Assembly: GCA_041661795.1 (NCBI GenBank)
Contig: JBAZTS010000002.1
Span: 36,263-100,262, forward strand
Source of the DNA: Minisyncoccota bacterium
GTDB taxonomy: Bacteria > Patescibacteriota > Minisyncoccia > UBA6257 > JAGOQP01
Reading direction: 5' to 3'
DNA: 64,000 bases
A program made the translations under genes and the position numbers. A model generated the notes under the pieces. The model was not told the DNA's origin. It saw nothing but the letters and a program-made list of their open reading frames with translations, and searched no databases. Numbering within the stretch: position 1 is the stretch's first letter; the number at the start of each line of letters is the position of its first letter. Positions 2,246-62,743 of the stretch are shown here, one piece after another.

Positions 2246-2320
2246 TTGGTATCTTGTAGCTTGTGATGTGTATTTTGGATGATAACCAGATACGAGCTAC
2301 TAAATACTAGCTACTAATAA
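2246..2320. repeat. Intergenic repeat element (GTATCTTGTAGCT ... GATACGAGCTAC); inverted copy at 21523-21600
   Basis: Reverse complement of 21523-21600 aligns over ~70 nt with shared blocks gtatcttgtagct, agatacgagctacta, atac.agcta. Confidence 0.45.
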
Positions 2321-6043: not shown

Positions 6044-6769
6044 ATGTCTAAATTGGTGGTTTTAAATTGGAAGATGAATTTGCCCGATCTGCCGTCTTGG
6101 AGTGAAGCTTTGAAATTTAAAGGGAATAATAGAATTGTAGTTTGTCCTTCTTTCACTCATATAAATAAGCTAAGGAATTTATTAAAAGGAAAGGGGATAT
6201 ATATTGGGGCCCAAAACGTTTCTTATAAAGAAAATGGAGCTTTGACTGGAGAGGTGTCGGTTGAGATGTTAAAAGATGTCGGCGCTTCATATGCAATTAT
6301 AGGACATTCTGAAAGAAGATATGTTTTTGGAGAAACCGATGAAATTATAGCTAAGAAAGCAAAAGTTGTTCTTGAAGGCAGAATTACTCCTATTCTTTGT
6401 GTGGGAGAAACAAAGAAAATGACTAGAGAAAAATCCTGGAATTTTATCCGCTCTCAACTTCAAAAAGACTTATCTCTTACCCCTTACCCCTTACCCCTTA
6501 CCACTAGTTTAGTTGTGGCTTACGAGCCGGTCTGGTCTATTGGGGGAAATAAAAATATTGATGCGTCACATTCGGCTCATCTAATCGACAGAATAAGAGA
6601 GTTTCTATATACTAACTACAAGATGCGAGCCACCATCTTATACGGCGGAAGTGTTAATAGTAAAAATATTAAATCGCTTTTGTCTGTTGGTGAAATTGAC
6701 GGATTTTTGGTCGGGTCCGCCAGTTTAAAAAAAGAAGAAGTTAAAAAATTATTAAAATTAATAAATTAA
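6044..6769 (+). CDS. tpiA: Triose-phosphate isomerase with in-frame CCCCTTA-type triplet-repeat insertion (TPYPLPLTT)
   Basis: VVLNWKMN, IGHSERR, CVGE, AYEPVWSIG, YGGSV motifs; tandem cttacccc x3 at 6477-6508. Confidence 0.9.
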   Translation: MSKLVVLNWKMNLPDLPSWSEALKFKGNNRIVVCPSFTHINKLRNLLKGKGIYIGAQNVSYKENGALTGEVSVEMLKDVGASYAIIGHSERRYVFGETDEIIAKKAKVVLEGRITPILCVGETKKMTREKSWNFIRSQLQKDLSLTPYPLPLTTSLVVAYEPVWSIGGNKNIDASHSAHLIDRIREFLYTNYKMRATILYGGSVNSKNIKSLLSVGEIDGFLVGSASLKKEEVKKLLKLIN

Positions 6770-10787: not shown

Positions 10788-13350
10788 AATTTTTTCTCCT
10801 CTTGGTTCTTACCGTAAGAGAGTGGTTAAGATAAATGATTTTGAAAAAGAATTGTCTTTGCTCTCTGATGAGGAAATTAAGAATAAATCTCTTAAATTAA
10901 AAGAGGGTTTTTCCGGTGATCAAGAATATCTGGAAAACAACCTTGAATTGGCTTTTGCTTTAGTTAGAGAATCCTCCAAAAGAAATTTAAAGCAAAGACA
11001 TTTTGATGTCCAGCTTATTGGAGGTTTGGCAATGTCAGATGGAAAAATAGTTGAAATGGCAACGGGAGAAGGAAAAACTTTATCAGCCACACTGCCGGCT
11101 TATCTTTATGGAATCAGTGGAAAAGGAGTTCATGTTATTACTGTCAATGATTATCTTGCCAAAAGAGACGCTGTCTGGATGGGACAGATATATGATTTTT
11201 TAGGATTAACAGTTAGTTGTTTAGTTCATGACGGGGCGTATGTGTATGATTCTAAATATACAAATGAAATTCAAAGTGAAGAAGTGGCAGATGAAAAAAG
11301 AGATGTTGTTGGGGGTTTTAAAGTAATTCAAGAGTTTTTGAAACCAATATCAAGAAGAGAGGCCTATTTGTCAGATATAGTTTATGGAACTAACCACGAG
11401 TTTGGTTTTGATTATCTTAGAGATAATTTGGCTTACAATTCTAAAAATCAGGTCCAACGAGAGCATTATTTTGCTATTATTGACGAGGTAGACAGTATTT
11501 TAATAGATGAAGCCAGAACTCCTTTGATTATTTCAGCTCCAGACGTTGAAGCGGCTCAATACTACAAGGTTTTTGCCAAAGTAGTTAGTTCTTTGGAGAT
11601 TGAAAAGGATTATACAGTTGAAGAGAAAGATAGATCGGCCGTTATGACAGATGATGGTATTGCCAAGGTGGAAAAAATGCTGAATATAGAAAATATTTAT
11701 GATGCTCAATCTGCTTCCCTAGTTCACTATCTTGAAGAATCTTTAAAAGCCAAAGCTCTTTTTAGAAGAGACAGGCATTATGTTGTTAAATCCACTCCTT
11801 CTGGCGAGGGAGAAATTATTATAGTTGATGAATTTACCGGTCGCTTAATGCATGGAAGAAGGTATTCTGGGGGACTTCACCAGGCCATTGAAGCCAAAGA
11901 GGGGGTGAGAATTCAAGAGGAATCAAAAACGTTTGCTCAAATAACTATACAAAATTATTTTCGTCTTTATGAAAAAATAAGCGGAATGACGGGAACCGCC
12001 AAAACCAGCGCTGAAGAATTTAGGAAGGTTTACGGATTGGAAGTTGCTGTTATTCCATCCAATAAGCCCAGAGTAAGAAACGATAAATCGGATTTGATTT
12101 TCAAAACAAAAGAATCCAAATATCAGGCCATCGTGGGTGCTATAAAAGAAATGGTTGAAAAAGGCCAACCGGTTTTAGTTGGCACAACATCAATAGATGA
12201 GAACGAACTTTTATCCTCATATTTTTCCAATGCGGGAATAAAACATGAAGTGCTTAATGCCAAAAACCACGAAAGAGAGGGAGAAATAATTGCTCAGGCC
12301 GGAAGGTCGGAAGGCGTAACTTTAGCCACCAACATGGCTGGAAGAGGAGTGGATATAGTTTTAGGAGGAAATCCTCAAGATGTTTTGGATGCGCAAAAAG
12401 TTAAAGATGCCGGAGGACTTTTTGTTTTAGGAACTCAAAGAAATGAAGCCAGAAGAGTTGATAATCAGTTAAGAGGGCGCTCGGGAAGACAGGGGGATCC
12501 CGGAGAAACACAATTTTTTCTTTCTTTGGAGGATGATATGTTAAGAATTTTTGGAGGAGACAGAATCAAGTCAATGATGAATAGAATGAATATGCCCGAT
12601 GACGTTCCCATAGAATCATCTTTAATCGGAAAAGTAGTGGACGAAGCCCAAAAGAAAGTTGAAGGAATGAATTTTGATATCAGAAAACACCTGTTGGAAT
12701 ATGACGATGTTTTAAACAAACAAAGAAAAGCTGTTTATAGGAAAAGACAAAATATCTTAGAAAGGTTAGAAAAAGGGGAGTTGGAAGATGTTTTAAAAGA
12801 ATTGATTTTAGACGTCCTTAAATTTATTTTTTCAAATCCAACCAAGGATTTGGATTCTATAAAACAATGGTTTGAAGAAGTCGGGTTGGTTAGTAAAGAA
12901 GAAAAAGACAGTTTTAACGTTGAACAAGTGGAAAGCTCAATAAATCAGGGAGTGTTGGATGAATTTATTCTATCTAAAATAAATAACGTCTGTCAGGACC
13001 CGCAAGTTGGATTAAAAATACTTGGGTCCTTGGACGGGTTTTGGACTAATCACTTGGAAAATCTGGAGGCCTTATTGGAATCGGTAAGGATGAGAGCTTA
13101 TGGTCAAAAGGACCCACTGGTTGAATATAAAAGAGAAGGCCATCAGCTTTTTAAGGATTTAATAATTAACGCTCAAGTTTGGGTTGTCTCTAATGTTTTT
13201 AAGGAAATTCAAATCAATCCCAACAAAAATGTTTCTCAGAAATCTTTAGATACGATATACGATATACGAAATACGGATTCCAAATTAGGCCGTAATGACC
13301 CTTGTTATTGCGGAAGCGGTAAAAAATATAAAAAGTGCCATGGAAAATAA
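10765..13350 (+). CDS. secA: Preprotein translocase ATPase SecA
   Basis: 861 aa; MATGEGKTL Walker A; DEAD-like motor; C-terminal Zn finger CYCGSGKKYKKCHG. Confidence 0.95.
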   Translation: MMTSILDKIFSPLGSYRKRVVKINDFEKELSLLSDEEIKNKSLKLKEGFSGDQEYLENNLELAFALVRESSKRNLKQRHFDVQLIGGLAMSDGKIVEMATGEGKTLSATLPAYLYGISGKGVHVITVNDYLAKRDAVWMGQIYDFLGLTVSCLVHDGAYVYDSKYTNEIQSEEVADEKRDVVGGFKVIQEFLKPISRREAYLSDIVYGTNHEFGFDYLRDNLAYNSKNQVQREHYFAIIDEVDSILIDEARTPLIISAPDVEAAQYYKVFAKVVSSLEIEKDYTVEEKDRSAVMTDDGIAKVEKMLNIENIYDAQSASLVHYLEESLKAKALFRRDRHYVVKSTPSGEGEIIIVDEFTGRLMHGRRYSGGLHQAIEAKEGVRIQEESKTFAQITIQNYFRLYEKISGMTGTAKTSAEEFRKVYGLEVAVIPSNKPRVRNDKSDLIFKTKESKYQAIVGAIKEMVEKGQPVLVGTTSIDENELLSSYFSNAGIKHEVLNAKNHEREGEIIAQAGRSEGVTLATNMAGRGVDIVLGGNPQDVLDAQKVKDAGGLFVLGTQRNEARRVDNQLRGRSGRQGDPGETQFFLSLEDDMLRIFGGDRIKSMMNRMNMPDDVPIESSLIGKVVDEAQKKVEGMNFDIRKHLLEYDDVLNKQRKAVYRKRQNILERLEKGELEDVLKELILDVLKFIFSNPTKDLDSIKQWFEEVGLVSKEEKDSFNVEQVESSINQGVLDEFILSKINNVCQDPQVGLKILGSLDGFWTNHLENLEALLESVRMRAYGQKDPLVEYKREGHQLFKDLIINAQVWVVSNVFKEIQINPNKNVSQKSLDTIYDIRNTDSKLGRNDPCYCGSGKKYKKCHGK

Positions 13351-15367: not shown

Positions 15368-15973
15368 TTACCAGACAACCTTGCCTATGATGTTTTCTTT
15401 GGGTATTAAACCAAATCTGGTGCTATCCAAACTTCCTTCCGGAATGTTTCCTAAAATCAAAAAAGTGTCTTTTGGAATAATGGGATAATCTTTGGTATAC
15501 AACTTGAGCATGGCAGATTTTTGAGTAGATAAAACATAAGGAATAGATTGCTGGTTTCTCAATACTTTTTCGTTAACTATTATTTGATATCCGCTGTTTA
15601 TTTTTTTTAAGTTCCAAGAATCTCCATCTATGGCTTTTACTGTTTTTATGAGCGGTTCAGGATTGCCTGCATATTTGTATATGACAATATCATCTCTTTT
15701 GACTGGATTACACTTATAATATCCTTCCAAAACTTTTATTTTAGTTCCCGACTCTATTAATCCGCTCATGGAAGAACCAACTACGATGTCTTCTTTTTCG
15801 TCGTACGCGCAAGAAGAATTATTGGCAGAAACTATTTGTTTATCAGGGTGTTGGTTAATCTGAATCAGCTGGTCCGTGTTGCTTGATATGTTGAAAATAA
15901 TAATCAACAAAAAAATAACCGAGACGAGAACAAATATTTTGAATGTTTTTTTAAAAATCTTTGAATTTATCAT
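15368..15973 (-). CDS. lepB: Signal peptidase I (S26)
   Basis: GSSMSGLI (SM.PT box variant), GNIPEGSLDSTRFG (GDNR.S.DSR box), N-terminal TM. Confidence 0.7.
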   Translation of the reverse strand: MINSKIFKKTFKIFVLVSVIFLLIIIFNISSNTDQLIQINQHPDKQIVSANNSSCAYDEKEDIVVGSSMSGLIESGTKIKVLEGYYKCNPVKRDDIVIYKYAGNPEPLIKTVKAIDGDSWNLKKINSGYQIIVNEKVLRNQQSIPYVLSTQKSAMLKLYTKDYPIIPKDTFLILGNIPEGSLDSTRFGLIPKENIIGKVVW

Positions 15974-16012
15974 AAATTGAACTTGATGCCTATTTAAATT
16001 ATACTTCTTTGT

Positions 16013-18334
16013 ATGTTAAGCGACAATATACGCAATTTTTGTATTATAGCCCACATAGATCACGGCAAATCTACATTGGCTGATAGGTTGCTTGAAATTA
16101 CAGGAACTATAGATAAGAGGAAGATGAAGAACCAATATCTTGATCAATTGGAATTGGAAAGAGAAAGAGGGATAACTATCAAAATGGCTCCTGTCCGCAT
16201 GCTCTATGCGCTGACTAACGCCGACTCTACGCCGACTGACGCAGACAATAAGAAATTAGATAATGCGAGTAGTCAATTATTGTATGAAGATTTAACCTAT
16301 AAAATAAGAGGAGTGTTGTTTGGCGTAAAGAAAAAAATAGGACTTGGTCATAAAGAAGTTATTTACCAAAAGGCCATAGAAGAAGAATTGACAAAAGAGA
16401 ACATACCTTTTGAAAAAGAAAAAATAATTAATATAGAACTTGATAATAAAAGTCTTGGCGTATACAGACCAGATTTTGTTATTGATAATAAAATTATATT
16501 AGAGATAAAATCTTTGCCTTTTATTGGAGATGTTGAGAAAAGGCAAGTTTGGACATATCTTAAGGGATCAGAATATAAATTGGCTTTATTAGTCAATTTC
16601 AATTCTAGAGATATTGATATTAAAAGAGTTGTGTATGATACAGCCAGAGAAATTCAGCGTGAGTCAGCGTTTAGTCAGCGTAAGTCGGCGCAGGTTGAGC
16701 AGTATGTGCTCAACCTGATAGACACTCCCGGGCATCCGGATTTTGGTTATGAAGTTTCCAGAGCTTTGGAAGCGGTTGAGGGGGCAATTTTGTTGGTTGA
16801 TGGAATGCAAGGAATACAAGCACAAACGTTATCTAATTTTTATGCTGCCAAAAAAGCCGGACTTACAATTATTGGCGCGGTTAACAAAGTGGATTTAAAT
16901 ATTCCTGACATAGATAAAGTTGTAATGGAAACAGCGGAGCTAATTGGTTGTGGGCCAGAACAAATTCATAAAATATCAGGAAGAACAGGAGAGGGAGTTC
17001 AACAGCTTTTGGGAGCAGTTATTCTTAGAATCCTACCTCCAAAAGCTGTAATTCCCAATTTCCAATTCCCAATTTCCAATTTTGGAAGGGCATTAATATT
17101 TGATTCTTTTTATGACGACCACAAAGGAATTATAGCCAGTGTCAGGGTATTTAATGGAGAATTTAATCAGTTTGATGATGTGGTTTTGGTGGCTGCTAAA
17201 GAAAAATTTAAAACAAAAGAAGTCGGATATTTTTCTCCGACCCTAAATCCTTCAAAAAGAATTTTAGAGGGAGAGATAGGTTATTTGGTTACCGGGATAA
17301 GAGACCCGTATAAAATAAAAATCGGTGACACGGTAATAGGTCACAAATCACAAGTCGCGCATCACGAATCGTATGCTTTGCCCGGATACAAAGAACCAAA
17401 GCCGGTGGTGTTTGTTTCTTTCTATCCAGACAATCCGGATGAATATGATGATTTAAAAAAATCTTTGGAAAGATTAAAGCTTAACGACTCTTCTTTTGCT
17501 TTTGAGCCGGATTTAAATGAAGTGTTGGGCAGGGGATTTAAAGGAGGATTTTTGGGAAAGCTTCATTTTGAAATAATTTCTCAGCGTCTTGAAAGAGAGT
17601 TTGGAATAAAAACAATCACATCTTTTCCTTCGGTCAGTTATAAAATAAAAACTTCTTCCAAACACTTAGCTCATCTAAAATTGGACGAAGATGGATTTTT
17701 CATAGCGTATAATCCCAAAGATATTCCTGAAGAATTTGAAAAGATATTAGAACCGATGATAAAAGTTGAAATTGTTTCATCACAAAAAATATTGGGAACA
17801 GTTTTGGGACTTAAAGATGCTTTTCGTTGGGAATACATAGAGACCCAACAATTGGGAGAAAAAGTTATTATTAAAACCAGAATGCCCTTGGCTGAGCTTA
17901 TCTCGGATTTTGACGACCAGTTAAAATCGGTTTCAGGTGGATTTGCTTCTTTTAGTTATGAAGAAGACGGCTATCAACAGGGCGATTTAATTAGGATGGA
18001 TATTTTAGTGGCAGACGAAATAGTTCCTGGGCTTTCTAGAATTCTTCCCAAAAAAGACATAGAATATCCGGCCAGGAAAATGGTTGTTCGCTTAAAGGAA
18101 GTATTGCCTCATCAGCAATTTACCCAAGCTATTCAAGCCAAAGTCGGAGGGAGAATTATAGCCAGAGAAACTATTGCGGCTTTAAGAAAAGATGTGACCG
18201 GATATCTTTATGGAGGAGACAGAACAAGAAAAATGAAACTTTGGAAAAAACAGCAAAGAGGCAAAAAGAAACTTCTTTCTATGGCCAAAGTGACCATATC
18301 TCCAGAAAACTTCAAGAAACTTCTTTCAAAATAA
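16013..18334 (+). CDS. lepA: Elongation factor 4 (LepA) carrying an in-frame ~167-aa GxxExxY-domain insertion in the G domain
   Basis: AHIDHGKST ... [insertion] ... DTPGHPDF, NKVDL, LepA C-terminal domain; 773 aa vs ~600 typical. Confidence 0.9.
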   Translation: MLSDNIRNFCIIAHIDHGKSTLADRLLEITGTIDKRKMKNQYLDQLELERERGITIKMAPVRMLYALTNADSTPTDADNKKLDNASSQLLYEDLTYKIRGVLFGVKKKIGLGHKEVIYQKAIEEELTKENIPFEKEKIINIELDNKSLGVYRPDFVIDNKIILEIKSLPFIGDVEKRQVWTYLKGSEYKLALLVNFNSRDIDIKRVVYDTAREIQRESAFSQRKSAQVEQYVLNLIDTPGHPDFGYEVSRALEAVEGAILLVDGMQGIQAQTLSNFYAAKKAGLTIIGAVNKVDLNIPDIDKVVMETAELIGCGPEQIHKISGRTGEGVQQLLGAVILRILPPKAVIPNFQFPISNFGRALIFDSFYDDHKGIIASVRVFNGEFNQFDDVVLVAAKEKFKTKEVGYFSPTLNPSKRILEGEIGYLVTGIRDPYKIKIGDTVIGHKSQVAHHESYALPGYKEPKPVVFVSFYPDNPDEYDDLKKSLERLKLNDSSFAFEPDLNEVLGRGFKGGFLGKLHFEIISQRLEREFGIKTITSFPSVSYKIKTSSKHLAHLKLDEDGFFIAYNPKDIPEEFEKILEPMIKVEIVSSQKILGTVLGLKDAFRWEYIETQQLGEKVIIKTRMPLAELISDFDDQLKSVSGGFASFSYEEDGYQQGDLIRMDILVADEIVPGLSRILPKKDIEYPARKMVVRLKEVLPHQQFTQAIQAKVGGRIIARETIAALRKDVTGYLYGGDRTRKMKLWKKQQRGKKKLLSMAKVTISPENFKKLLSK
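16202..16702 (+). mobile_element. In-frame insertion within lepA encoding a complete GxxExxY-family PD-(D/E)XK domain, flanked by GC-rich AGTC(A/G)GCG-octamer inverted repeats
   Basis: DLTYKIRG...GHKEVIY...PDFVIDNKIILEIKS...LALLVNFN matches GxxExxY family; arms 16218-16262 and 16655-16700. Confidence 0.55.
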
Positions 18335-18349
18335 TTTTTATTTGTGTCT

Positions 18350-18450
18350 TTTTTTAAATAAGCTTTAGGAAAGATTTTGAGGCCATGCGGAAGACGGCGG
18401 TCTGAGCTAGAGGGATTTTTCAGCAGAAAAATACCCGTGCCTAAAAATTT
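18350..18450 (+). repeat. ~95-nt conserved intergenic element (copy A), candidate 5' leader/ncRNA; inverted copy at 46835-46930
   Basis: Near-identical core GAGGGATTTTTCAGCAGAAAAATACCCGTGCC shared with reverse complement of 46835-46930. Confidence 0.5.
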
Positions 18451-18472
18451 TTTCTAAAGCGGATTAGTATTA

Positions 18473-18787
18473 TTGGTTGTAAGTTATTGGCTGTCTTGTT
18501 ATTATTTACTTATGAGTGTTAAGAGGGCTGTTTGGCTGACGGTTTTTGGTTTGTTTTTGCTACTTTTGTGGGTTAATTTATTTGTCATATTTAAAGAATT
18601 AAGAAAGTTGTCTTTGGAATACAAGCAAGTGAGTGAAGATTTTGTGAAACTGGAAGATGAAAACAAGATGATAGAAAGAGATATAGCTTTTTATTCTTTT
18701 CCGGCTAATTTAGAAAAGAATTTAAGAGAGAAATTTAATTATAAAAAAACGGGGGAGAAAATGATTATTGTTGTTCCGGGAAATTAA
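18473..18787 (+). CDS. FtsB/DivIC-like septum formation initiator (possible start at 18512)
   Basis: Single TM then coiled-coil KLSLEYKQVSEDFVKLEDENKMIERDIAF. Confidence 0.45.
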   Translation: MVVSYWLSCYYLLMSVKRAVWLTVFGLFLLLLWVNLFVIFKELRKLSLEYKQVSEDFVKLEDENKMIERDIAFYSFPANLEKNLREKFNYKKTGEKMIIVVPGN

Positions 18788-18789
18788 AT

Positions 18790-19374
18790 ATGATTTTGTT
18801 TTTAAACAAGTACAAAAAATTGACCATTATTTTGTTAATAATGGCTCTTGTTGCGTTCGTTTTTATTTTAATTATCGGATTTGGAATTTATCCTTTGGCT
18901 ATAGCTGATGGAAAAATAATCACATCTCGCCAATACTACAAAAGCTATAATTTGGCTTACAATTATTTTAGCTATTTTAATAATTTTTACGGAGTCAAAG
19001 ATTCTCCCGAATTTGAAAAAGAAATGAAATTAACAGTAATGCAAGGATTAATTGACGAAATTATTGTTGATAAAAAACTTGCGCAGGAATTTAAAAAATC
19101 TGAATTACAGCAAAAAGTGAATGAGAAAGTAAATCAGATGTATGAGGGTGAAAACTTCAAAAAGATATTATCTGAAATCACCAAAGTTTCCGAAGATGAT
19201 ATAAAGAATTATTTTATTGAAAATCAGGCAAAAAATGATATATTGGCCGGTAGGCTGGATTTAGAAGGAAAAAACGTTGTCTCTTGGTTAGTTGAAAAAA
19301 GAAAAGAGATTAAAATTTATCTGTTGGCTCCACATATGAAATGGGAGAAAGGAGAAATAGAATGGAAAGATTGA
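18790..19374 (+). CDS. Hypothetical membrane-anchored protein (SurA-N-like region, tentative)
   Basis: N-terminal TM; no firm family. Confidence 0.4.
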   Translation: MILFLNKYKKLTIILLIMALVAFVFILIIGFGIYPLAIADGKIITSRQYYKSYNLAYNYFSYFNNFYGVKDSPEFEKEMKLTVMQGLIDEIIVDKKLAQEFKKSELQQKVNEKVNQMYEGENFKKILSEITKVSEDDIKNYFIENQAKNDILAGRLDLEGKNVVSWLVEKRKEIKIYLLAPHMKWEKGEIEWKD

Positions 19375-19385
19375 TATATAATTTG

Positions 19386-19456
19386 AGCGGGATACGGGAA
19401 TCGAACCCGCGCTTCAACCTTGGGAAGGTCGTGTATTACCACTGTACTAATCCCGC
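19386..19456 (-). tRNA. tRNA-Gly (anticodon CCC)
   Basis: GCGGGAT acceptor, anticodon arm CGACC-TTCCCAA-GGTTG, T-arm GGGTTCGATTCCC, discriminator U; no encoded CCA. Confidence 0.85.
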
Positions 19457-19477
19457 ACTAAGCATCTAGATAAGTTT

Positions 19478-20668
19478 ATGAAATATCTTAGAAATGTCAA
19501 AATAGAAAAGATAAGAAACAAAACCTGCGTTTTAAGGTTGGGTTTGGATATAAAGGATGGTGAGTTAAAAAATTCGTTGAGAGTTATAAAATCTATCCCG
19601 ACACTCAAATTTCTATTAAAAAACGACTGCAAAGTAGTGATAATTTCACATCGAGGTAGACCTCAAGAGGGGAAAGAGGAAAGTGAAAAGAGGAAAGTGA
19701 AAAGAGAAGAAACTTTAAGATCATTTGTGGAGATTTTTGAAAAACTACTAAAAACAAAGATTAGTTTTGATGACTCTTTTGATTTTAAAAAGATGAGTGA
19801 AAAGATTAAAAAACTTCACTCAAAATCTATAGTTATTGTTGAAAATATAAGATTAGTAAAAGGAGAAAAGGATGATAACGATAAGCTAGGGAGAGAATTG
19901 GCTTCTTTGGGAAATTTTTATGTGAATGATGATTTTTCTACCAGTCACAGAAAAAACGCTTCTTTATGTGCGATAACAAAATTCACACCTTCTTATGTTG
20001 GCCTGCAGTTTGAAGAAGAAATAAAGAATTTAGACAAAGTTCTTAAAAATCAAAGGAAGCCAGTTGTTCTGATTGTAGGGGGAGTTAAATTGTCGGACAA
20101 AGTTGGCGTAATAAAAAATTTCTTAAACAAGGCAGATTATGTTTTGACCGGTGGGGGAGTTTCCAATACTTTCTTTGCTGCTAAAGAAATTCCAGTTGGT
20201 GATTCGTTAATTGATAAAGAAATGATGAAAATGGCAAAAACCTTACTTAAATCAAAAAAAATCATTTTACCCCAAGACGTTAGGATAAAAGGAAAATCTA
20301 TATTGGATATAGGGGATAAAACCATTGAAGAATATAAAAAAATAATAGAAAAAGCAGGGACTATTATTTGGGGTGGACCGTTAGGATATTTTGAGGACAA
20401 AAAATTTGCCAAAGGAACATTTGAAATAGCCAGAGCGATTTTAAAATCAAAAGCTTTTTGTGTTATTGGCGGCGGAGAAACTACAGTCGCCTTTCTTAAG
20501 GCAACTCGCGGACTTACACGGACTTCACGCAGAACTACGCGGAAAACAGTCAGCGTCAGTCAGCGTTCAGTCGGCGTTGGTCAGCGCTTGTTTCTGTCTA
20601 CTGGTGGAGGGGCAATGTTGGAATATCTAGCAGGTAAAAAATTACCGGCTTTGGAAGCGCTTAAATAA
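19478..20668 (+). CDS. pgk: Phosphoglycerate kinase with two in-frame low-complexity insertions
   Basis: VIISHRGRP, FSTSHR, GGGVSNTF, STGGGAMLEYLAGKKLPALEAL; insertions at 19670-19715 and 20511-20588. Confidence 0.9.
   Translation: MKYLRNVKIEKIRNKTCVLRLGLDIKDGELKNSLRVIKSIPTLKFLLKNDCKVVIISHRGRPQEGKEESEKRKVKREETLRSFVEIFEKLLKTKISFDDSFDFKKMSEKIKKLHSKSIVIVENIRLVKGEKDDNDKLGRELASLGNFYVNDDFSTSHRKNASLCAITKFTPSYVGLQFEEEIKNLDKVLKNQRKPVVLIVGGVKLSDKVGVIKNFLNKADYVLTGGGVSNTFFAAKEIPVGDSLIDKEMMKMAKTLLKSKKIILPQDVRIKGKSILDIGDKTIEEYKKIIEKAGTIIWGGPLGYFEDKKFAKGTFEIARAILKSKAFCVIGGGETTVAFLKATRGLTRTSRRTTRKTVSVSQRSVGVGQRLFLSTGGGAMLEYLAGKKLPALEALK
20511..20588 (+). repeat. In-frame GC-rich AGTCAGCG-octamer repeat insertion in pgk (encodes TRTSRRTTRKTVSVSQRSVGVGQR)
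   Basis: cagtcagcgtcagtcagcgttcagtcggcgttggtcagcg; same octamer family as lepA insertion arms. Confidence 0.55.
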
Positions 20669-20673
20669 TTATT

Positions 20674-21522
20674 ATGAAAGATATTGTTGTTTTATATCAT
20701 AAAGATTGCTGGGACGGATTTGGAGCTGCTTGGGCGGCTTGGAAAAAATTTGGCGATAAAGCTCAATATATCCCAGTTGGCTACGAAGAAAATCTACCCA
20801 AGGGTTTAATTAATAAGGAAATATATCTAGTTGATTTTTGCTATGAAGATAATTTAATGAAGAAGATTATTGGTAATAATAAAAAAGTTATAGTTATTGA
20901 CCATCATTTTAGTAGGGAGAAATTTATAAAAAGTGTTAAGGGTTGTATTTATGGAAGAAATAATTCTGGGTCAATTCTCTCTTGGAAATATTTTCATCCA
21001 AACAAAAAAGTTCCCATATTTTTGAAACACATAGAAGACATTGATCTATGGAGTTTTAAATTAAAAGATTCTTACGAAATTATGCTGGCGGTTGATTTAA
21101 AAACTCGCGATTTTAATAGTTGGAGTAAAATTGCCAAAGATTTAGAAGATAAAAAAACAAAAGGTAAATATATAAATGAGGGTAAGATAATTTTAAATTA
21201 TACCAATAGAATCGTAACTGATATTGCAAAAAAAGCTGTTCCTGTTTTGATTGACGGTAAAAAAGCCATGGCGGTTAATGGACCTCATTTTATACATTCA
21301 GAAATAGGAAATGTTTTACACAATAATGAATATCCAATCGGTCTGATTTGGCGAGCGGAAGGAAACAACATTTTTGTTTCTTTGAGGTCAAAAAAAGGAG
21401 GGAAAACAGATGTTTCTAAAATTGCCAAAAAATATGGTGGCGGGGGACATAAATCGGCATCGGGATTCGGGATAAAAAATGGGTTAGGTAAAAAACTTCC
21501 CTGGCGTATTATTAAGCAGTAG
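20674..21522 (+). CDS. DHH-family phosphoesterase with DHHA1 (NrnA-like)
   Basis: VIDHH DHH motif; C-terminal GGGGH DHHA1 motif. Confidence 0.75.
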   Translation: MKDIVVLYHKDCWDGFGAAWAAWKKFGDKAQYIPVGYEENLPKGLINKEIYLVDFCYEDNLMKKIIGNNKKVIVIDHHFSREKFIKSVKGCIYGRNNSGSILSWKYFHPNKKVPIFLKHIEDIDLWSFKLKDSYEIMLAVDLKTRDFNSWSKIAKDLEDKKTKGKYINEGKIILNYTNRIVTDIAKKAVPVLIDGKKAMAVNGPHFIHSEIGNVLHNNEYPIGLIWRAEGNNIFVSLRSKKGGKTDVSKIAKKYGGGGHKSASGFGIKNGLGKKLPWRIIKQ

Positions 21523-21600
21523 CTTGTATATAGTAGCTCGTATCTTGTATAAGAGAAGATTGTATGCCAACTACTAGCTACAAGATACTAGATACAATTT
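21523..21600. repeat. Intergenic repeat element, inverted copy of 2246-2320
   Basis: See 2246-2320. Confidence 0.45.
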
Positions 21601-38045: not shown

Positions 38046-38168
38046 TATTTTGTGTAATTTTTATATCTATCATTTCTTGCTACAGCAACCAGATTTATAT
38101 ATAACCGGTACTTAATATGTAATTTTTTGTATATAGTATTTGGTATACGGTATACGATATTCGGTATT

Positions 38169-39272
38169 CTATTTTAGATTCTCTATTATAGCTATCTCAA
38201 AGGGCACCAAGGGGAAAGGATTGTATTTCATTTGGGAGTAGGCGGTGATGAGCGCTTTTATAAGTTTTATCTGCTCGTCCGTATCTATTTTAGCCGAATG
38301 TTTTTTTATTTCTTTTATTTGGCTTTCGGCCAATTCCTTTTCAAATATCTTTTCCAGTTCCGGATTAAGATGTAAAGAAAGAACCCTTCTTAAATATTCT
38401 GTCAGATCTTTGTTAAATTGAAAAAGATTGTATCCCTGACTGTTTATTTCGTATAAAAATTCCAGCGACTTTTGTAAGTCCTTTTTTATGACCAAATCGG
38501 CCATTTTTATTGTTTTTAGAAAATCAACTTTTCCCAAGATGCTTTCCACGTATTCAACGGTAATATTCTTGCCCTTCATGGAAACAATCTGGTCAAAAAG
38601 AGATTCGGCATCTCTTAAACTTCCTTCAGCTAAAAAGGCAATCATTTCCAAAGCTTCTTTTTCGTATTCTACTTTTTCTTCTTTGGCGATAAATGAAAGT
38701 TTTTTTATAATCTCCTGTAGTGTCAGCTTTCTAAAATGAAATCTCTGGGTTCGGGAAACAATAGTGGGAGGGAGCTTGTCGTATTCGGTGGTGGCTAATA
38801 TAAAAACGGCATGGGCTGGCGGTTCTTCTAAAGTTTTTAAAAGAGCGTTAAATGCCTGTGGAGTGAGCATGTGAACTTCATCTATGATAAAGATTTTGTA
38901 TTTAAGATAAGAGGGGAGTGTTTTTATGTTTTCTTTGAGATTTCTTATTTCATCTATTCCTCGGTTGGAAGCGGCGTCAATTTCAACGACATCCAAAGCT
39001 CTGCCTTCTTCAACTTGTAAACAGGCGTGACATTCTCCACAGGGCTCTCCTTGCTTGGCAAAGTTTTCGTCCTCTTGTCTTTTCTGGCAGTTAATTATTT
39101 TGGAAAAGATTCTGGCGATAGTTGTTTTGCCGGTTCCTCTTGAACCGTAGAAAAGATAGGCATGAGAAATTTTACCTTCCTTAACTGAATTTTGAAGTAT
39201 GGTAACCGTATTTTCCTGACCGTAAATATCAGCAAGTTTTTTTGGTCGGTATTTTCTATAAATAGCTAACAT
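38169..39272 (-). CDS. dnaX: DNA polymerase III subunit gamma/tau (short form)
   Basis: GSRGTGKTT Walker A, Zn module CGECHAC, DEVHML box. Confidence 0.9.
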   Translation of the reverse strand: MLAIYRKYRPKKLADIYGQENTVTILQNSVKEGKISHAYLFYGSRGTGKTTIARIFSKIINCQKRQEDENFAKQGEPCGECHACLQVEEGRALDVVEIDAASNRGIDEIRNLKENIKTLPSYLKYKIFIIDEVHMLTPQAFNALLKTLEEPPAHAVFILATTEYDKLPPTIVSRTQRFHFRKLTLQEIIKKLSFIAKEEKVEYEKEALEMIAFLAEGSLRDAESLFDQIVSMKGKNITVEYVESILGKVDFLKTIKMADLVIKKDLQKSLEFLYEINSQGYNLFQFNKDLTEYLRRVLSLHLNPELEKIFEKELAESQIKEIKKHSAKIDTDEQIKLIKALITAYSQMKYNPFPLVPFEIAIIENLK

Positions 39273-39278
39273 ATCAAT

Positions 39279-39309
<31 letters not shown>

Positions 39310-39334
39310 TAAAGAGCTATGAAATAAAAAAAGC

Positions 39335-51133: not shown

Positions 51134-51178
51134 TTATAATAATCATATACCGAATACAGTATACCGTATACCGCAAAA

Positions 51179-62693: not shown

Positions 62694-62743
62694 AAGATTA
62701 GTATATAGTATTTAGTAGTTAGTATATAGTATAATAGAAACAA

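What the first reader, a model, noticed from the sequence alone, without database searches (positions are those of the whole stretch)
16202..16702. Complete GxxExxY (PD-(D/E)XK) nuclease-like domain inserted in-frame into the LepA G domain, bounded by GC-rich inverted repeats
Between the switch-I region (GITIKMAPVRM) and the DTPGH G3 motif, lepA carries ~167 extra in-frame codons. They match the free-standing GxxExxY protein family end to end (DLTYKIRG..GHKEVIY..PDFVIDNKIILEIKS..LALLVNFN). The insertion is delimited by GC-rich arms of AGTC(A/G)GCG octamers in inverted orientation (16218-16262 and 16655-16700), unlike the AT-rich host gene. There are no intein termini (no Cys/Ser at the N-junction, no HN+Cys/Ser/Thr at the C-junction), and the frame is open throughout, so this is not an intron read by chance. 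It resembles the in-frame palindromic-element insertions of Rickettsia (RPEs), but here the element carries a nuclease-like ORF. GxxExxY genes are otherwise known as stand-alone ORFs. This may be a previously undescribed class of in-frame selfish element targeting conserved translation factors.
Basis: partly seen in the sequence, partly recalled or inferred. Interest (0 to 1): 0.85.

Follow-up and report, generated by a model that had tools for sequence, protein, structure and literature searches.

The report
Nuclease gene jumping in-frame into proteins
The lepA gene of this Paceibacterota (candidate phyla radiation) bacterium is interrupted, without breaking its reading frame, by a small selfish DNA element: a nuclease gene bracketed by inverted repeat arrays. 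The same kind of element sits inside many unrelated proteins of related bacteria, which would make it a third type of in-frame selfish element beside inteins and Rickettsia palindromic elements.

Summary
lepA (16013-18334) carries about 162 extra in-frame codons in the beta2-beta3 turn of its G domain. They hold a full-length GxxExxY / PD-(D/E)XK nuclease (TIGR04256, profile 1-116 of 116, E 2e-30). The nuclease lies between GC-rich inverted arms (16207-16246 and 16654-16693), each with three or four copies of an 8-nt motif spaced about 10 nt apart.

It is not a native LepA domain.
- Related LepAs are empty, carry the arms alone, or hold the module at two other sites.
- The closest relatives of the insert sit in at least ten unrelated protein families (GT2, RecG, DHFR, GatB, LeuRS, RtcB, O-antigen ligase and others), always with the same arms.
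- Its nuclease is most similar to copies at a different LepA site in its nearest relatives.
- An arms-only copy sits in frame in pgk (20507-20587), and a syntenic relative lacks it.

Motif-array arms also flank free-standing GxxExxY genes in many phyla: 50 of 79 loci, against 0 in controls.

Best reading: a transposon-like selfish element translated as part of its host protein. Its mobility mechanism is inferred, not shown. The proposed targeting of translation factors is not supported. I found no prior description.

The parts
16013..18334 (+). Host gene lepA (elongation factor 4), 773 aa. G1-G4 motifs are intact.
   Evidence: TIGR01393 645 bits. The ORF is listed. The host part is 64-72% identical to empty-site relatives.
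16195..16209 (+). Left junction: a residual 5-nt mirror of the host flank (CGCAT / ATGCG).
   Evidence: Not significant in the window (P 0.71). In relatives the first insert codons mirror the host V-R-M codons over 7-10 nt, with covariation (L084 9 nt, L085 10 nt). 28 of 55 full inserts begin with the predicted mirror peptide H-[ASPT]-[YHND]-[RGW].
16207..16246 (+). Left arm: CGCYGACT x3 plus CGCAGAC, spaced 10-11 nt. It is translated as a linker (LTNADSTPTDAD).
   Evidence: It is disordered in both AlphaFold models (pLDDT below 50).
16247..16288 (+). Poorly conserved spacer between the left arm and the nuclease.
   Evidence: Gapped, non-conserved columns in alignment A1.
16289..16633 (+). GxxExxY / PD-(D/E)XK nuclease core (aa 93-207). 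It has no start or stop codon of its own.
16654..16693 (+). Right arm: TCAGCG, AGTCAGCG x2 and AGTCGGCG, the inverted copy of the left arm. It is translated as QRESAFSQRKSA.
   Evidence: pLDDT is 33-42 in the full LepA model.
16691..16717 (+). Right junction palindrome: the last insert codons (CAGGTTGAGCA, Q-V-E-Q) are the exact reverse complement of the first host codons after the Tyr codon (TGCTCAACCTG, V-L-N-L).
   Evidence: repeat I11. 0 of 200 shuffles reach it. It co-varies in 6 of 7 other LepA loci. The mirror peptide is present in 38 of 55 full inserts.
19478..20668 (+). Host gene pgk (phosphoglycerate kinase), 396 aa. It carries the second, arms-only element.
20507..20587 (+). Arms-only (non-autonomous) copy of the same element family, in frame in pgk. 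Left arm CGCGGACT/CACGGACT/CGCAGAAC/CGCGGAA; right arm AGTCAGCG x2, AGTCGGCG, GGTCAGCG.
   Evidence: The syntenic relative L081 has a 373-aa PGK lacking about 22 codons here. About 30 of 107 related PGKs carry arm-type peptides at this site, and none carries the nuclease.

Best explanation
The segment is a small selfish DNA element. It is a roughly 375-bp PD-(D/E)XK (GxxExxY) nuclease gene bracketed by two inverted arms. Each arm is an array of three or four copies of a 7-8 bp motif spaced one helical turn apart.

In a Patescibacteria-specific lineage of this family the element has neither a start nor a stop codon. Its arms use motifs that are stop-free in all six frames. It can therefore sit inside a surface loop of a host protein and be translated straight through. 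The arms become disordered linkers and the nuclease folds as an extra domain, so the host protein (here LepA) stays functional. The nuclease borrows the host gene's promoter and ribosome-binding site.

The element moves between sites and genes within a lineage. Internal deletion leaves arms-only copies, like the one in pgk, which resemble non-autonomous MITE- or RPE-like elements.

Inferred, not shown: the encoded nuclease binds the iterated motifs of its own arms, brings the two ends together and cuts. Host break repair then carries out insertion, which would explain the absence of target-site duplication. It might also explain the mirror-image copies of host flank at some junctions.
For: Insertion rather than native domain:
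- Among related LepAs, 55 carry the full element at this site by a strict motif test (nine more are full but fail it), 27 are empty, and the rest carry short inserts, three of them clearly arm-derived remnants.
- The same module occurs at two other LepA sites.
- The window's nearest LepA relatives by host sequence are mostly empty or arms-only.

Many hosts:
- Most of the top 45 of 5777 relatives are internal to larger proteins.
- The 20 of these scanned with Pfam comprise at least ten unrelated families, and one has no recognisable host domain.
- All carry homologous arm peptides.

Movement:
- The window's nuclease core is 73% and 70% identical to cores at LepA site 2 of its closest relatives, and 68% to one in a GT2 enzyme. 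The median to other LepA site-1 cores is 56%.
- The neighbour-joining (NJ) tree interleaves the hosts.

Translated through:
- All six loci of the in-frame clade found by a frame-blind tblastn scan are open on both sides.
- The core has no ATG of its own.
- The catalytic E52, D91, E101 and K103 are invariant.
- AlphaFold places beta2 and beta3 of the G domain normally, with disordered linkers and a well-folded nuclease.

Arms as a cis-acting part of the element:
- 55 of 80 GxxExxY loci from many phyla have significant inverted arms.
- 50 of 79 have a 7-mer at least three times in both arms, against 0 in shuffled and 0 in displaced flanks.
- The periodicity peaks at 9-10 nt.
- The motif differs between loci but matches between the two arms of each locus.

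Non-autonomous copy: the pgk element shares the rare AGTCRGCG octamer, and the site is empty in a syntenic relative.
Against: - No mobility event has been seen directly. I found no near-identical copies at two sites in one genome and no presence/absence polymorphism between strains.
- PD-(D/E)XK enzymes hydrolyse DNA but are not known to carry out strand transfer. A 120-aa nuclease as the only mobility protein has no precedent.
- There is no evidence that the protein binds the arms.
- The window holds only one full and one arms-only copy in 64 kb.
- The mirror-image junctions are present in LepA and at two other loci, but absent in RecG, GatB, GT2, DHFR and RtcB insertions. They cannot be a universal signature of insertion.
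- The NJ tree is built on 125 residues and is not bootstrapped.
Confidence: 0.6

Rival explanations
1. A homing-endonuclease gene without an intron or intein. The nuclease cuts empty alleles of the same site in other cells or genome copies, and the element is copied in by recombinational repair. The arms are only linkers or regulatory sequence.
For: - The same LepA site is occupied in very many lineages, as are the same RecG and GT2 sites.
- Occupied sites are conserved genes, as with inteins.
- There is no target-site duplication.
- PD-(D/E)XK homing endonucleases exist (I-Ssp6803I; my own knowledge).
Against: - Homing does not need arms, yet motif-array arms are nearly universal in the family, co-evolve within each locus, and survive as arms-only copies.
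- Cores at different sites of one lineage are each other's closest relatives. This requires ectopic movement, not only homing.
- The targets share no evident sequence.
Confidence: 0.2
2. The nuclease is cargo or an addiction module. The arms are mobilised in trans by some other, unidentified enzyme, as REPINs are mobilised by RAYT transposases.
For: - Arms-only copies are far more common than full copies at the pgk site.
- A small hydrolytic nuclease alone is an unlikely transposase.
Against: - The arms flank this particular gene family in 55 of 80 loci across many phyla.
- No other conserved gene accompanies the element in the contexts examined.
Confidence: 0.1
3. An RNA-level intervening sequence. 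The two arms pair in the transcript and the segment is cut out (RNase III-like or bulge-helix-bulge cleavage, then RtcB ligation), so that mature LepA lacks it.
For: - The arms are predicted to pair in RNA over about 40 nt (-137 kcal/mol for the 531-nt region, z -5.96).
- RtcB exists in these bacteria.
Against: - Arm mismatches show no strand asymmetry: 43 G-T against 45 A-C.
- All in-frame-clade loci from a frame-blind search keep the frame open through both arms and into the host. That would be unnecessary if the segment were spliced out.
- The nuclease has no start codon, so it can only be made by read-through.
- No Rfam family matches.
- The catalytic residues are those of metal-dependent DNases.
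Confidence: 0.05
4. A domesticated accessory domain of LepA that has a host function in this clade.
For: - It is widespread in Paceibacteria-type LepAs.
- The nuclease residues are conserved.
Against: - The distribution is patchy, with empty and decayed alleles among the nearest relatives.
- There are three sites within LepA.
- The same module sits in unrelated enzymes.
- Truncated copies exist (P0054).
Confidence: 0.05

Closest known systems
Rickettsia palindromic elements (RPEs)
   Same: Palindromic DNA inserted in frame into conserved protein genes. It is translated into surface loops and is tolerated by the host protein. The arms-only copy in pgk is the direct analogue.
   Different: RPEs encode nothing, and no autonomous partner or mobilising enzyme is known for them. 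Here a full-length form carries a nuclease gene between the arms. The arms are arrays of a short motif at helical spacing. The host phylum is different, and sequence relatedness to RPEs was not tested.
Inteins with homing endonuclease domains
   Same: A selfish nuclease-encoding element that sits in frame in conserved sites of essential proteins and is expressed from the host gene's signals.
   Different: There is no Hint splicing domain and there are no splice-junction residues. The insert stays in the mature protein. The nuclease is PD-(D/E)XK rather than LAGLIDADG or HNH. The element has DNA inverted repeats.
REP / RAYT (REPIN) systems
   Same: A single small gene flanked by inverted repeats, with many short palindromic non-autonomous derivatives of those repeats elsewhere.
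   Different: RAYTs are HUH tyrosine transposases and REPs are extragenic. Here the enzyme is a PD-(D/E)XK nuclease and the elements sit inside genes.
IS elements and MITEs with terminal inverted repeats (multi-site ends as in Tn7 or Mu)
   Same: The two ends are inverted and contain several phased copies of a short motif. Deletion derivatives lacking the gene persist.
   Different: There is no target-site duplication and no DDE, serine, tyrosine or HUH transposase. The element is only about 0.5 kb and is read through by the host ORF.
Free-standing and intron-borne PD-(D/E)XK homing endonucleases (e.g. I-Ssp6803I)
   Same: A small PD-(D/E)XK nuclease acting as a selfish gene.
   Different: It is not in an intron, it has arms, and it has many unrelated insertion sites.

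Membership tests
GxxExxY protein (TIGR04256) / PDDEXK_3 (PF13366) | Profile match above the curated cutoff over the full length | tested here: met
   105.6 bits against 35, profile 1-116 of 116. PF13366 101 bits against 22.
GxxExxY protein (TIGR04256) / PDDEXK_3 (PF13366) | PD-(D/E)XK catalytic residues (E of GxxExxY, PD, ExK) and the corresponding fold | tested here: met
GxxExxY protein (TIGR04256) / PDDEXK_3 (PF13366) | Free-standing protein of about 125 aa | tested here: not met
   It is embedded at aa 93-207 of a 773-aa LepA with no start or stop of its own. Most of the top 45 relatives are embedded too.
LepA / EF4 (TIGR01393) | Equivalog profile above the cutoff, with G1-G4 motifs and the LepA C-terminal domain | tested here: met
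   645.5 bits against 533.9; PF06421 LepA_C.
Intein | Hint domain, Cys/Ser at the N-junction, His-Asn plus Cys/Ser/Thr at the C-junction | tested here: not met
   No Hint or intein Pfam hit. The junctions are A66|L67 and Q229|Y230.
Group I / group II intron or other known structured RNA | Match to an Rfam covariance model | tested here: not met
   Only a tRNA and one chance-level hit in 15500-21000 at E up to 1.
Rickettsia palindromic element (RPE) | Palindromic element inserted in frame in a protein gene and translated | tested here: met
Rickettsia palindromic element (RPE) | Short (about 100-150 bp) with no ORF of its own | tested here: not met
   The lepA copy is about 490 bp and encodes a nuclease. 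The pgk copy (81 bp) does meet this feature.
Rickettsia palindromic element (RPE) | Sequence homology to RPE families | not tested
Classical TIR transposon / MITE | Terminal inverted repeats | tested here: met
   Arms 16207-16246 and 16654-16693.
Classical TIR transposon / MITE | Target-site duplication | tested here: not met
   No direct repeat at the boundaries in the window or in 12 other in-frame loci.
Classical TIR transposon / MITE | Known transposase family (DDE, HUH, serine or tyrosine) | tested here: not met
   The only domain is PF13366.
REP / RAYT | HUH Y1 transposase flanked by inverted REPs, located outside genes | tested here: not met
   The flanking inverted repeats are present, but the enzyme is PD-(D/E)XK and the location is intragenic.
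23S rRNA intervening-sequence ORF | Located within an rRNA gene | tested here: not met
   No rRNA in 20 free-standing GxxExxY loci or in the window region.
Anti-phage defence nuclease / phage gene | Match to PADLOC or PHROG families | tested here: not met
   No hits in either library. Only 12 distant relatives in IMG/VR.
Homing endonuclease | Cleaves the empty allele of its own insertion site | not testable with these tools
   Needs biochemistry.

The most novel reading that the evidence does not exclude
GxxExxY genes with their phased inverted motif arrays are a previously unrecognised class of prokaryotic mobile element driven by a minimal PD-(D/E)XK nuclease. One lineage, in Patescibacteria, has specialised in living inside open reading frames, translated through by the host ribosome. 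It seeds these reduced genomes with arms-only palindromic inserts. That would explain many of the odd low-complexity insertions in candidate-phyla-radiation (CPR) proteins. It would also provide the autonomous element plus derivative pair that has never been found for Rickettsia RPEs. The mirror-image host flanks at LepA junctions would then be scars of hairpin or fold-back intermediates of insertion.
Probability: 0.4. Interest if true: 0.9.

Novelty: new variant of a known kind. Interest (0 to 1): 0.8.

Why it matters
Only two kinds of selfish element are known to live inside protein-coding frames. Inteins remove themselves from the protein. Rickettsia palindromic elements have no known engine. 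This element has an RPE-like lifestyle and also carries a candidate engine, a conserved nuclease. Arms-only derivatives lie in the same genomes.

That makes an old question experimentally approachable: how do palindromic elements get into genes in frame? The arms, the nuclease and empty sites can all be synthesised and tested.

It also has three further consequences.
- It suggests that the widespread, uncharacterised GxxExxY / PDDEXK_3 family is a mobile-element family.
- It offers an explanation for many of the low-complexity insertions seen here in LepA and PGK of Patescibacteria, and perhaps in other proteins of the group.
- It explains annotation errors. This LepA is annotated from Met63, and other fusions are named 'GxxExxY protein'.

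Tried and rejected
- **rRNA intervening-sequence idea** (recalled from memory for this family). There is no rRNA in 20 free-standing loci. Dropped.
- **RNA stem as the selected feature.** The arms fold well as RNA, but their mismatches show no G-U bias on the sense strand (43 against 45). Judged unlikely.
- **Target-site duplication.** None found at any junction.
- **Mirror-image host flanks as a universal insertion scar.** They are strong in LepA sites 1 and 2, L005 and L001. They are absent in RecG, GatB, GT2, DHFR and RtcB. Kept as unexplained.
- **Metagenome scan for AGTCRGCG x3**. Most of the 80 loci were unrelated GC-rich tandem repeats with no nuclease. Only a few were in-frame arms-only elements, in PolX-like and DnaG-like genes as judged by eye. 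The scan was not useful for counting copies.
- **Sequence search of the PDB.** It gave only a chance-level hit to T7 endonuclease I (E 0.57). The fold search gave generic PD-(D/E)XK matches without a specific function.
- **Defence, phage or virus-borne origin.** No PADLOC or PHROG hit, and only 12 distant viral hits.
- **A full element at the pgk site.** None among the 120 closest PGKs.
- **Other copies in the window.** None.
- **Literature.** Six full-text searches found no description. The 2012 PD-(D/E)XK survey lists PF13366 as function unknown.
Full report
**What is at the coordinates**

The window is AT-rich (about 35% G+C). Its own proteins in the database are labelled Candidatus Paceibacterota, a Patescibacteria/CPR group (P0001, P0270).

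The ORF 16013..18334 encodes a 773-aa LepA/EF4 (TIGR01393, 645 bits). Its profile match is interrupted between the switch-I strand (GITIKMAPVRM) and the G3 motif (DTPGH).

The interruption holds a complete GxxExxY domain: TIGR04256 profile 1-116 of 116 at aa 93-207, E 1.9e-30. Pfam calls it PDDEXK_3 (PF13366).

Empty LepA relatives have 26-30 residues from GITIK to DTPGH. The window has 189, so the insert is about 162-164 codons.

The flanking arms are real.
- AGTCRGCG occurs 10 times in 64 kb against 0.83 expected by chance.
- There are three copies in the right arm (16654-16693) and three reverse-complement copies in the left arm (16207-16246).
- The spacing is 10-11 nt.

There is no Hint or intein domain and no Cys, Ser or Thr at the junctions. 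No Rfam family matches.

**It is an insertion, not a LepA domain**

Among the 120 best LepA relatives, all Patescibacteria-type, site 1 shows these states:

| State at site 1 | Count |
|---|---|
| Nuclease plus arms, by a strict motif test | 55 |
| Full but failing that test | 9 more |
| Empty | 27 |
| Short inserts | the remainder |

The short inserts include arm-derived remnants (P0004, P0046, P0047) and a truncated nuclease (P0054).

Three relatives carry the module at a second LepA site, in domain II (P0003, P0004, P0008). One carries it at a third site (P0111). Arm remnants occupy further loops.

By host-only identity, the window's nearest LepAs are mostly empty or short at site 1.

An AlphaFold model of the whole protein supports a tolerated loop insertion.
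- Strands beta2 (60-66) and beta3 (230-237) lie in their normal hairpin.
- The two arm-encoded segments are disordered linkers (pLDDT 33-50).
- The nuclease is a separate, well-folded domain (pLDDT 80-89).

**The same element sits in many unrelated proteins**

A search of 1.84 billion representative proteins with the 167-aa insert found 5777 relatives. Most of the best 45 are internal to larger proteins.

Pfam identifies the hosts as follows:
- GT2 and GT1/GT4 glycosyltransferases
- RecG, four clusters
- a DEAD helicase
- DHFR
- GatB
- LeuRS
- RtcB
- O-antigen ligase
- EF-type GTPases

Every one carries homologous arm peptides: '..TQTxTQTNAD' on the left and 'RxSAxSxRxSA' on the right. The claim that the element targets translation factors is therefore not supported.

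The catalytic E, D, E and K and a dozen other residues are invariant across inserts from different hosts. The nuclease is under purifying selection.

**Evidence for movement**

The window's nuclease core was compared with other cores:

| Compared core | Identity to the window core |
|---|---|
| LepA site 2 of P0003, a close host relative | 73% |
| LepA site 2 of P0004, a close host relative | 70% |
| A GT2 enzyme | 68% |
| 62 other LepA site-1 cores (median) | 56% |

A neighbour-joining tree of 121 cores interleaves LepA copies with copies from other hosts. The tree is not bootstrapped. Elements therefore group by lineage rather than by insertion site, which indicates transfer between sites and genes.

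A second, arms-only copy lies in frame in pgk (20507-20587). It uses the same rare octamer.
- The syntenic contig L081 has the same gene order: signal peptidase, lepA, DivIC, then pgk further downstream.
- Its PGK is 373 aa and lacks about 22 codons exactly there.
- About 30 of 107 related PGKs have arm-type peptides at this site, and none has the nuclease.
- In-frame arms-only copies also occur in other genes in metagenomes, including PolX-like and DnaG-like genes as judged by eye.

**A family-wide property**

I fetched 80 GxxExxY loci from GTDB genomes. Most are free-standing ORFs of 130-170 aa in Omnitrophota, Chloroflexota, Bacteroidota, Saccharibacteria and other phyla.

- 55 have significant inverted repeats flanking the ORF.
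- 50 of 79 have a 7-mer present at least three times in both arms. The count is 0 after shuffling and 0 for flanks displaced by 500 nt.
- Arm autocorrelation peaks at 9-10 nt.
- The motif varies between loci (CGCAGAC, ACGCGGA, CACGGAT, CACGAAT, TACAAAT and others). The two arms of each locus agree with each other.

This architecture, several phased copies of a short site in inverted orientation at both ends, is that of protein-binding transposon ends.

Arm mismatches show no sense-strand G-U excess (43 against 45). That argues for a constraint on double-stranded DNA rather than on an RNA stem.

No target-site duplication is seen at any junction.

**Translation through the element**

The core has no in-frame ATG. 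The in-frame clade uses arm motifs that have no stop codon in any of the six frames, which I checked by reading the motifs. This also explains why the arms are GC-rich in an AT-rich genome.

The tblastn-based locus search was blind to the host frame. All six loci of the in-frame clade (L001-L006) are open for 77-470 codons upstream and 276-547 codons downstream. That would not be required if the segment were removed from the RNA.

**An unexplained feature: mirror-image junctions**

In the window, the last insert codons are CAGGTTGAGCA (Q-V-E-Q). They are the exact reverse complement of the host codons TGCTCAACCTG (V-L-N-L) that follow the Tyr codon. None of 200 shuffles reaches this match.

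Six of seven other LepA site-1 loci have an 11-12-nt palindrome at the same place, and a seventh has 8 nt. Synonymous differences in the host codons are mirrored by amino-acid changes in the insert (Q/E, V/I, E/K, Q/D/N).

The left junction behaves likewise. The insert begins with the mirror of the host V-R-M codons, over 7-10 nt in L081, L084 and L085.

The predicted mirror peptides occur in 38 (right) and 28 (left) of 55 full inserts.

Similar mirrors occur at LepA site 2, at L005 (13 nt) and at L001. They do not occur at the RecG, GatB, GT2, DHFR or RtcB insertions.

They could be scars of hairpin or fold-back processing of broken target ends. They could also be selected structures at the element boundary. 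I cannot decide between these.

**Conclusion**

The best-supported reading is a selfish, transposon-like element: nuclease gene plus phased inverted arms. A Patescibacteria lineage of it inserts in frame into surface loops of proteins, is translated through, and decays to arms-only, RPE-like inserts.

Shown:
- it is an insertion;
- it has many hosts and sites;
- empty sites exist;
- the catalytic residues are conserved;
- the frame is open;
- the arm architecture is family-wide.

Inferred:
- the nuclease recognises its own arms;
- it cuts to initiate movement;
- host repair completes insertion.

Rivals are pure homing, mobilisation by another enzyme, RNA excision and a domesticated domain. All are less consistent with the data but are not excluded.

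Six literature searches found no description of this. The only survey that mentions PF13366 lists its function as unknown.

Noticed in passing
window 20507-20587 (in pgk, 19478-20668): An 81-nt arms-only palindromic element with the same AGTCRGCG motif, in frame in phosphoglycerate kinase (peptide TRGLTRTSRRTTRKTVSVSQRSVGVGQR). It is absent from the syntenic relative L081. About 30 of 107 related PGKs have arm-type inserts at this site.
   Followed up: yes
window 16691-16717; L081-L086 lepA junctions: A perfect 11-12-nt palindrome between the end of the insert and the first host codons. It co-varies across lineages, and there is a matching mirror at the left junction in relatives. It is not seen at RecG, GatB, GT2, DHFR or RtcB insertions.
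   Followed up: partly
window 17050-17082 (lepA, aa about 346-357): A tandem 14-mer, AATTCCCAATTTCC x2.3 (peptide IPNFQFPISNF), in the linker between the G domain and domain II. In relatives this loop carries arms-only inserts (P0004, P0010), so it may be a remnant of an AT-rich arm family.
   Followed up: partly
window 19673-19706 (pgk): A tandem 14-mer, AAAGAGGAAAGTGA x2.4, adds about 4 codons relative to the PGK of the syntenic relative L081.
   Followed up: partly
window 2290-2317, 6476-6502, 13250-13275, 21572-21595, 38125-38169, 39279-39311, 51146-51173, 62699-62733: Many short tandem heptamer repeats (ATACGAT, TATACCG, GTATTCG, AAGTATA, TAGTATA, TACTAGC, CTTACCC), mostly at gene ends or between genes. 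Several share a GTATAC-like core. Their function is unknown.
   Followed up: partly
window 16199 (Met63 of LepA): The public annotation of this LepA (P0001, 711 aa) starts at Met63, just before the insert, and so drops the G1 and switch-I part. Other LepA fusions are named 'GxxExxY protein'. The insertion misleads automatic annotation.
   Followed up: partly
LepA relatives P0013, P0014, P0056, P0059, P0070, P0077, P0089, P0092, P0096 (site 1): Other AT-rich palindromic low-complexity inserts occupy the same LepA turn (the 'EILNSK...' and 'QNANIKNQN...' types). Some end in '(I/V)LNF(D/N)xY(I/T)LNL', which looks like a direct duplication of the host YILNL. They may be a different element family with a target duplication.
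   Followed up: no
P0097 against P0098; P0072, P0100: Near-identical LepAs differ in the number of right-arm repeat units (SPQLSAS x4 against x1). Others have duplicated right arms. The arms expand and contract like tandem repeats.
   Followed up: no
P0148, P0159, P0169, P0178 and others: In a separate GxxExxY subfamily the nuclease forms the N-terminus of a protein that continues ('..YTNDRK..') into a transmembrane or signal segment and a secreted-looking domain. The element seems to have inserted at the very 5' end of the host gene and to supply its start codon.
   Followed up: no
L081 13662-13913; L208 2696-2998: Small free-standing GIY-YIG nuclease ORFs lie next to pgk in the syntenic relative and next to a GT2 gene that carries a GxxExxY element. 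This is another class of selfish nuclease in the same neighbourhoods.
   Followed up: no
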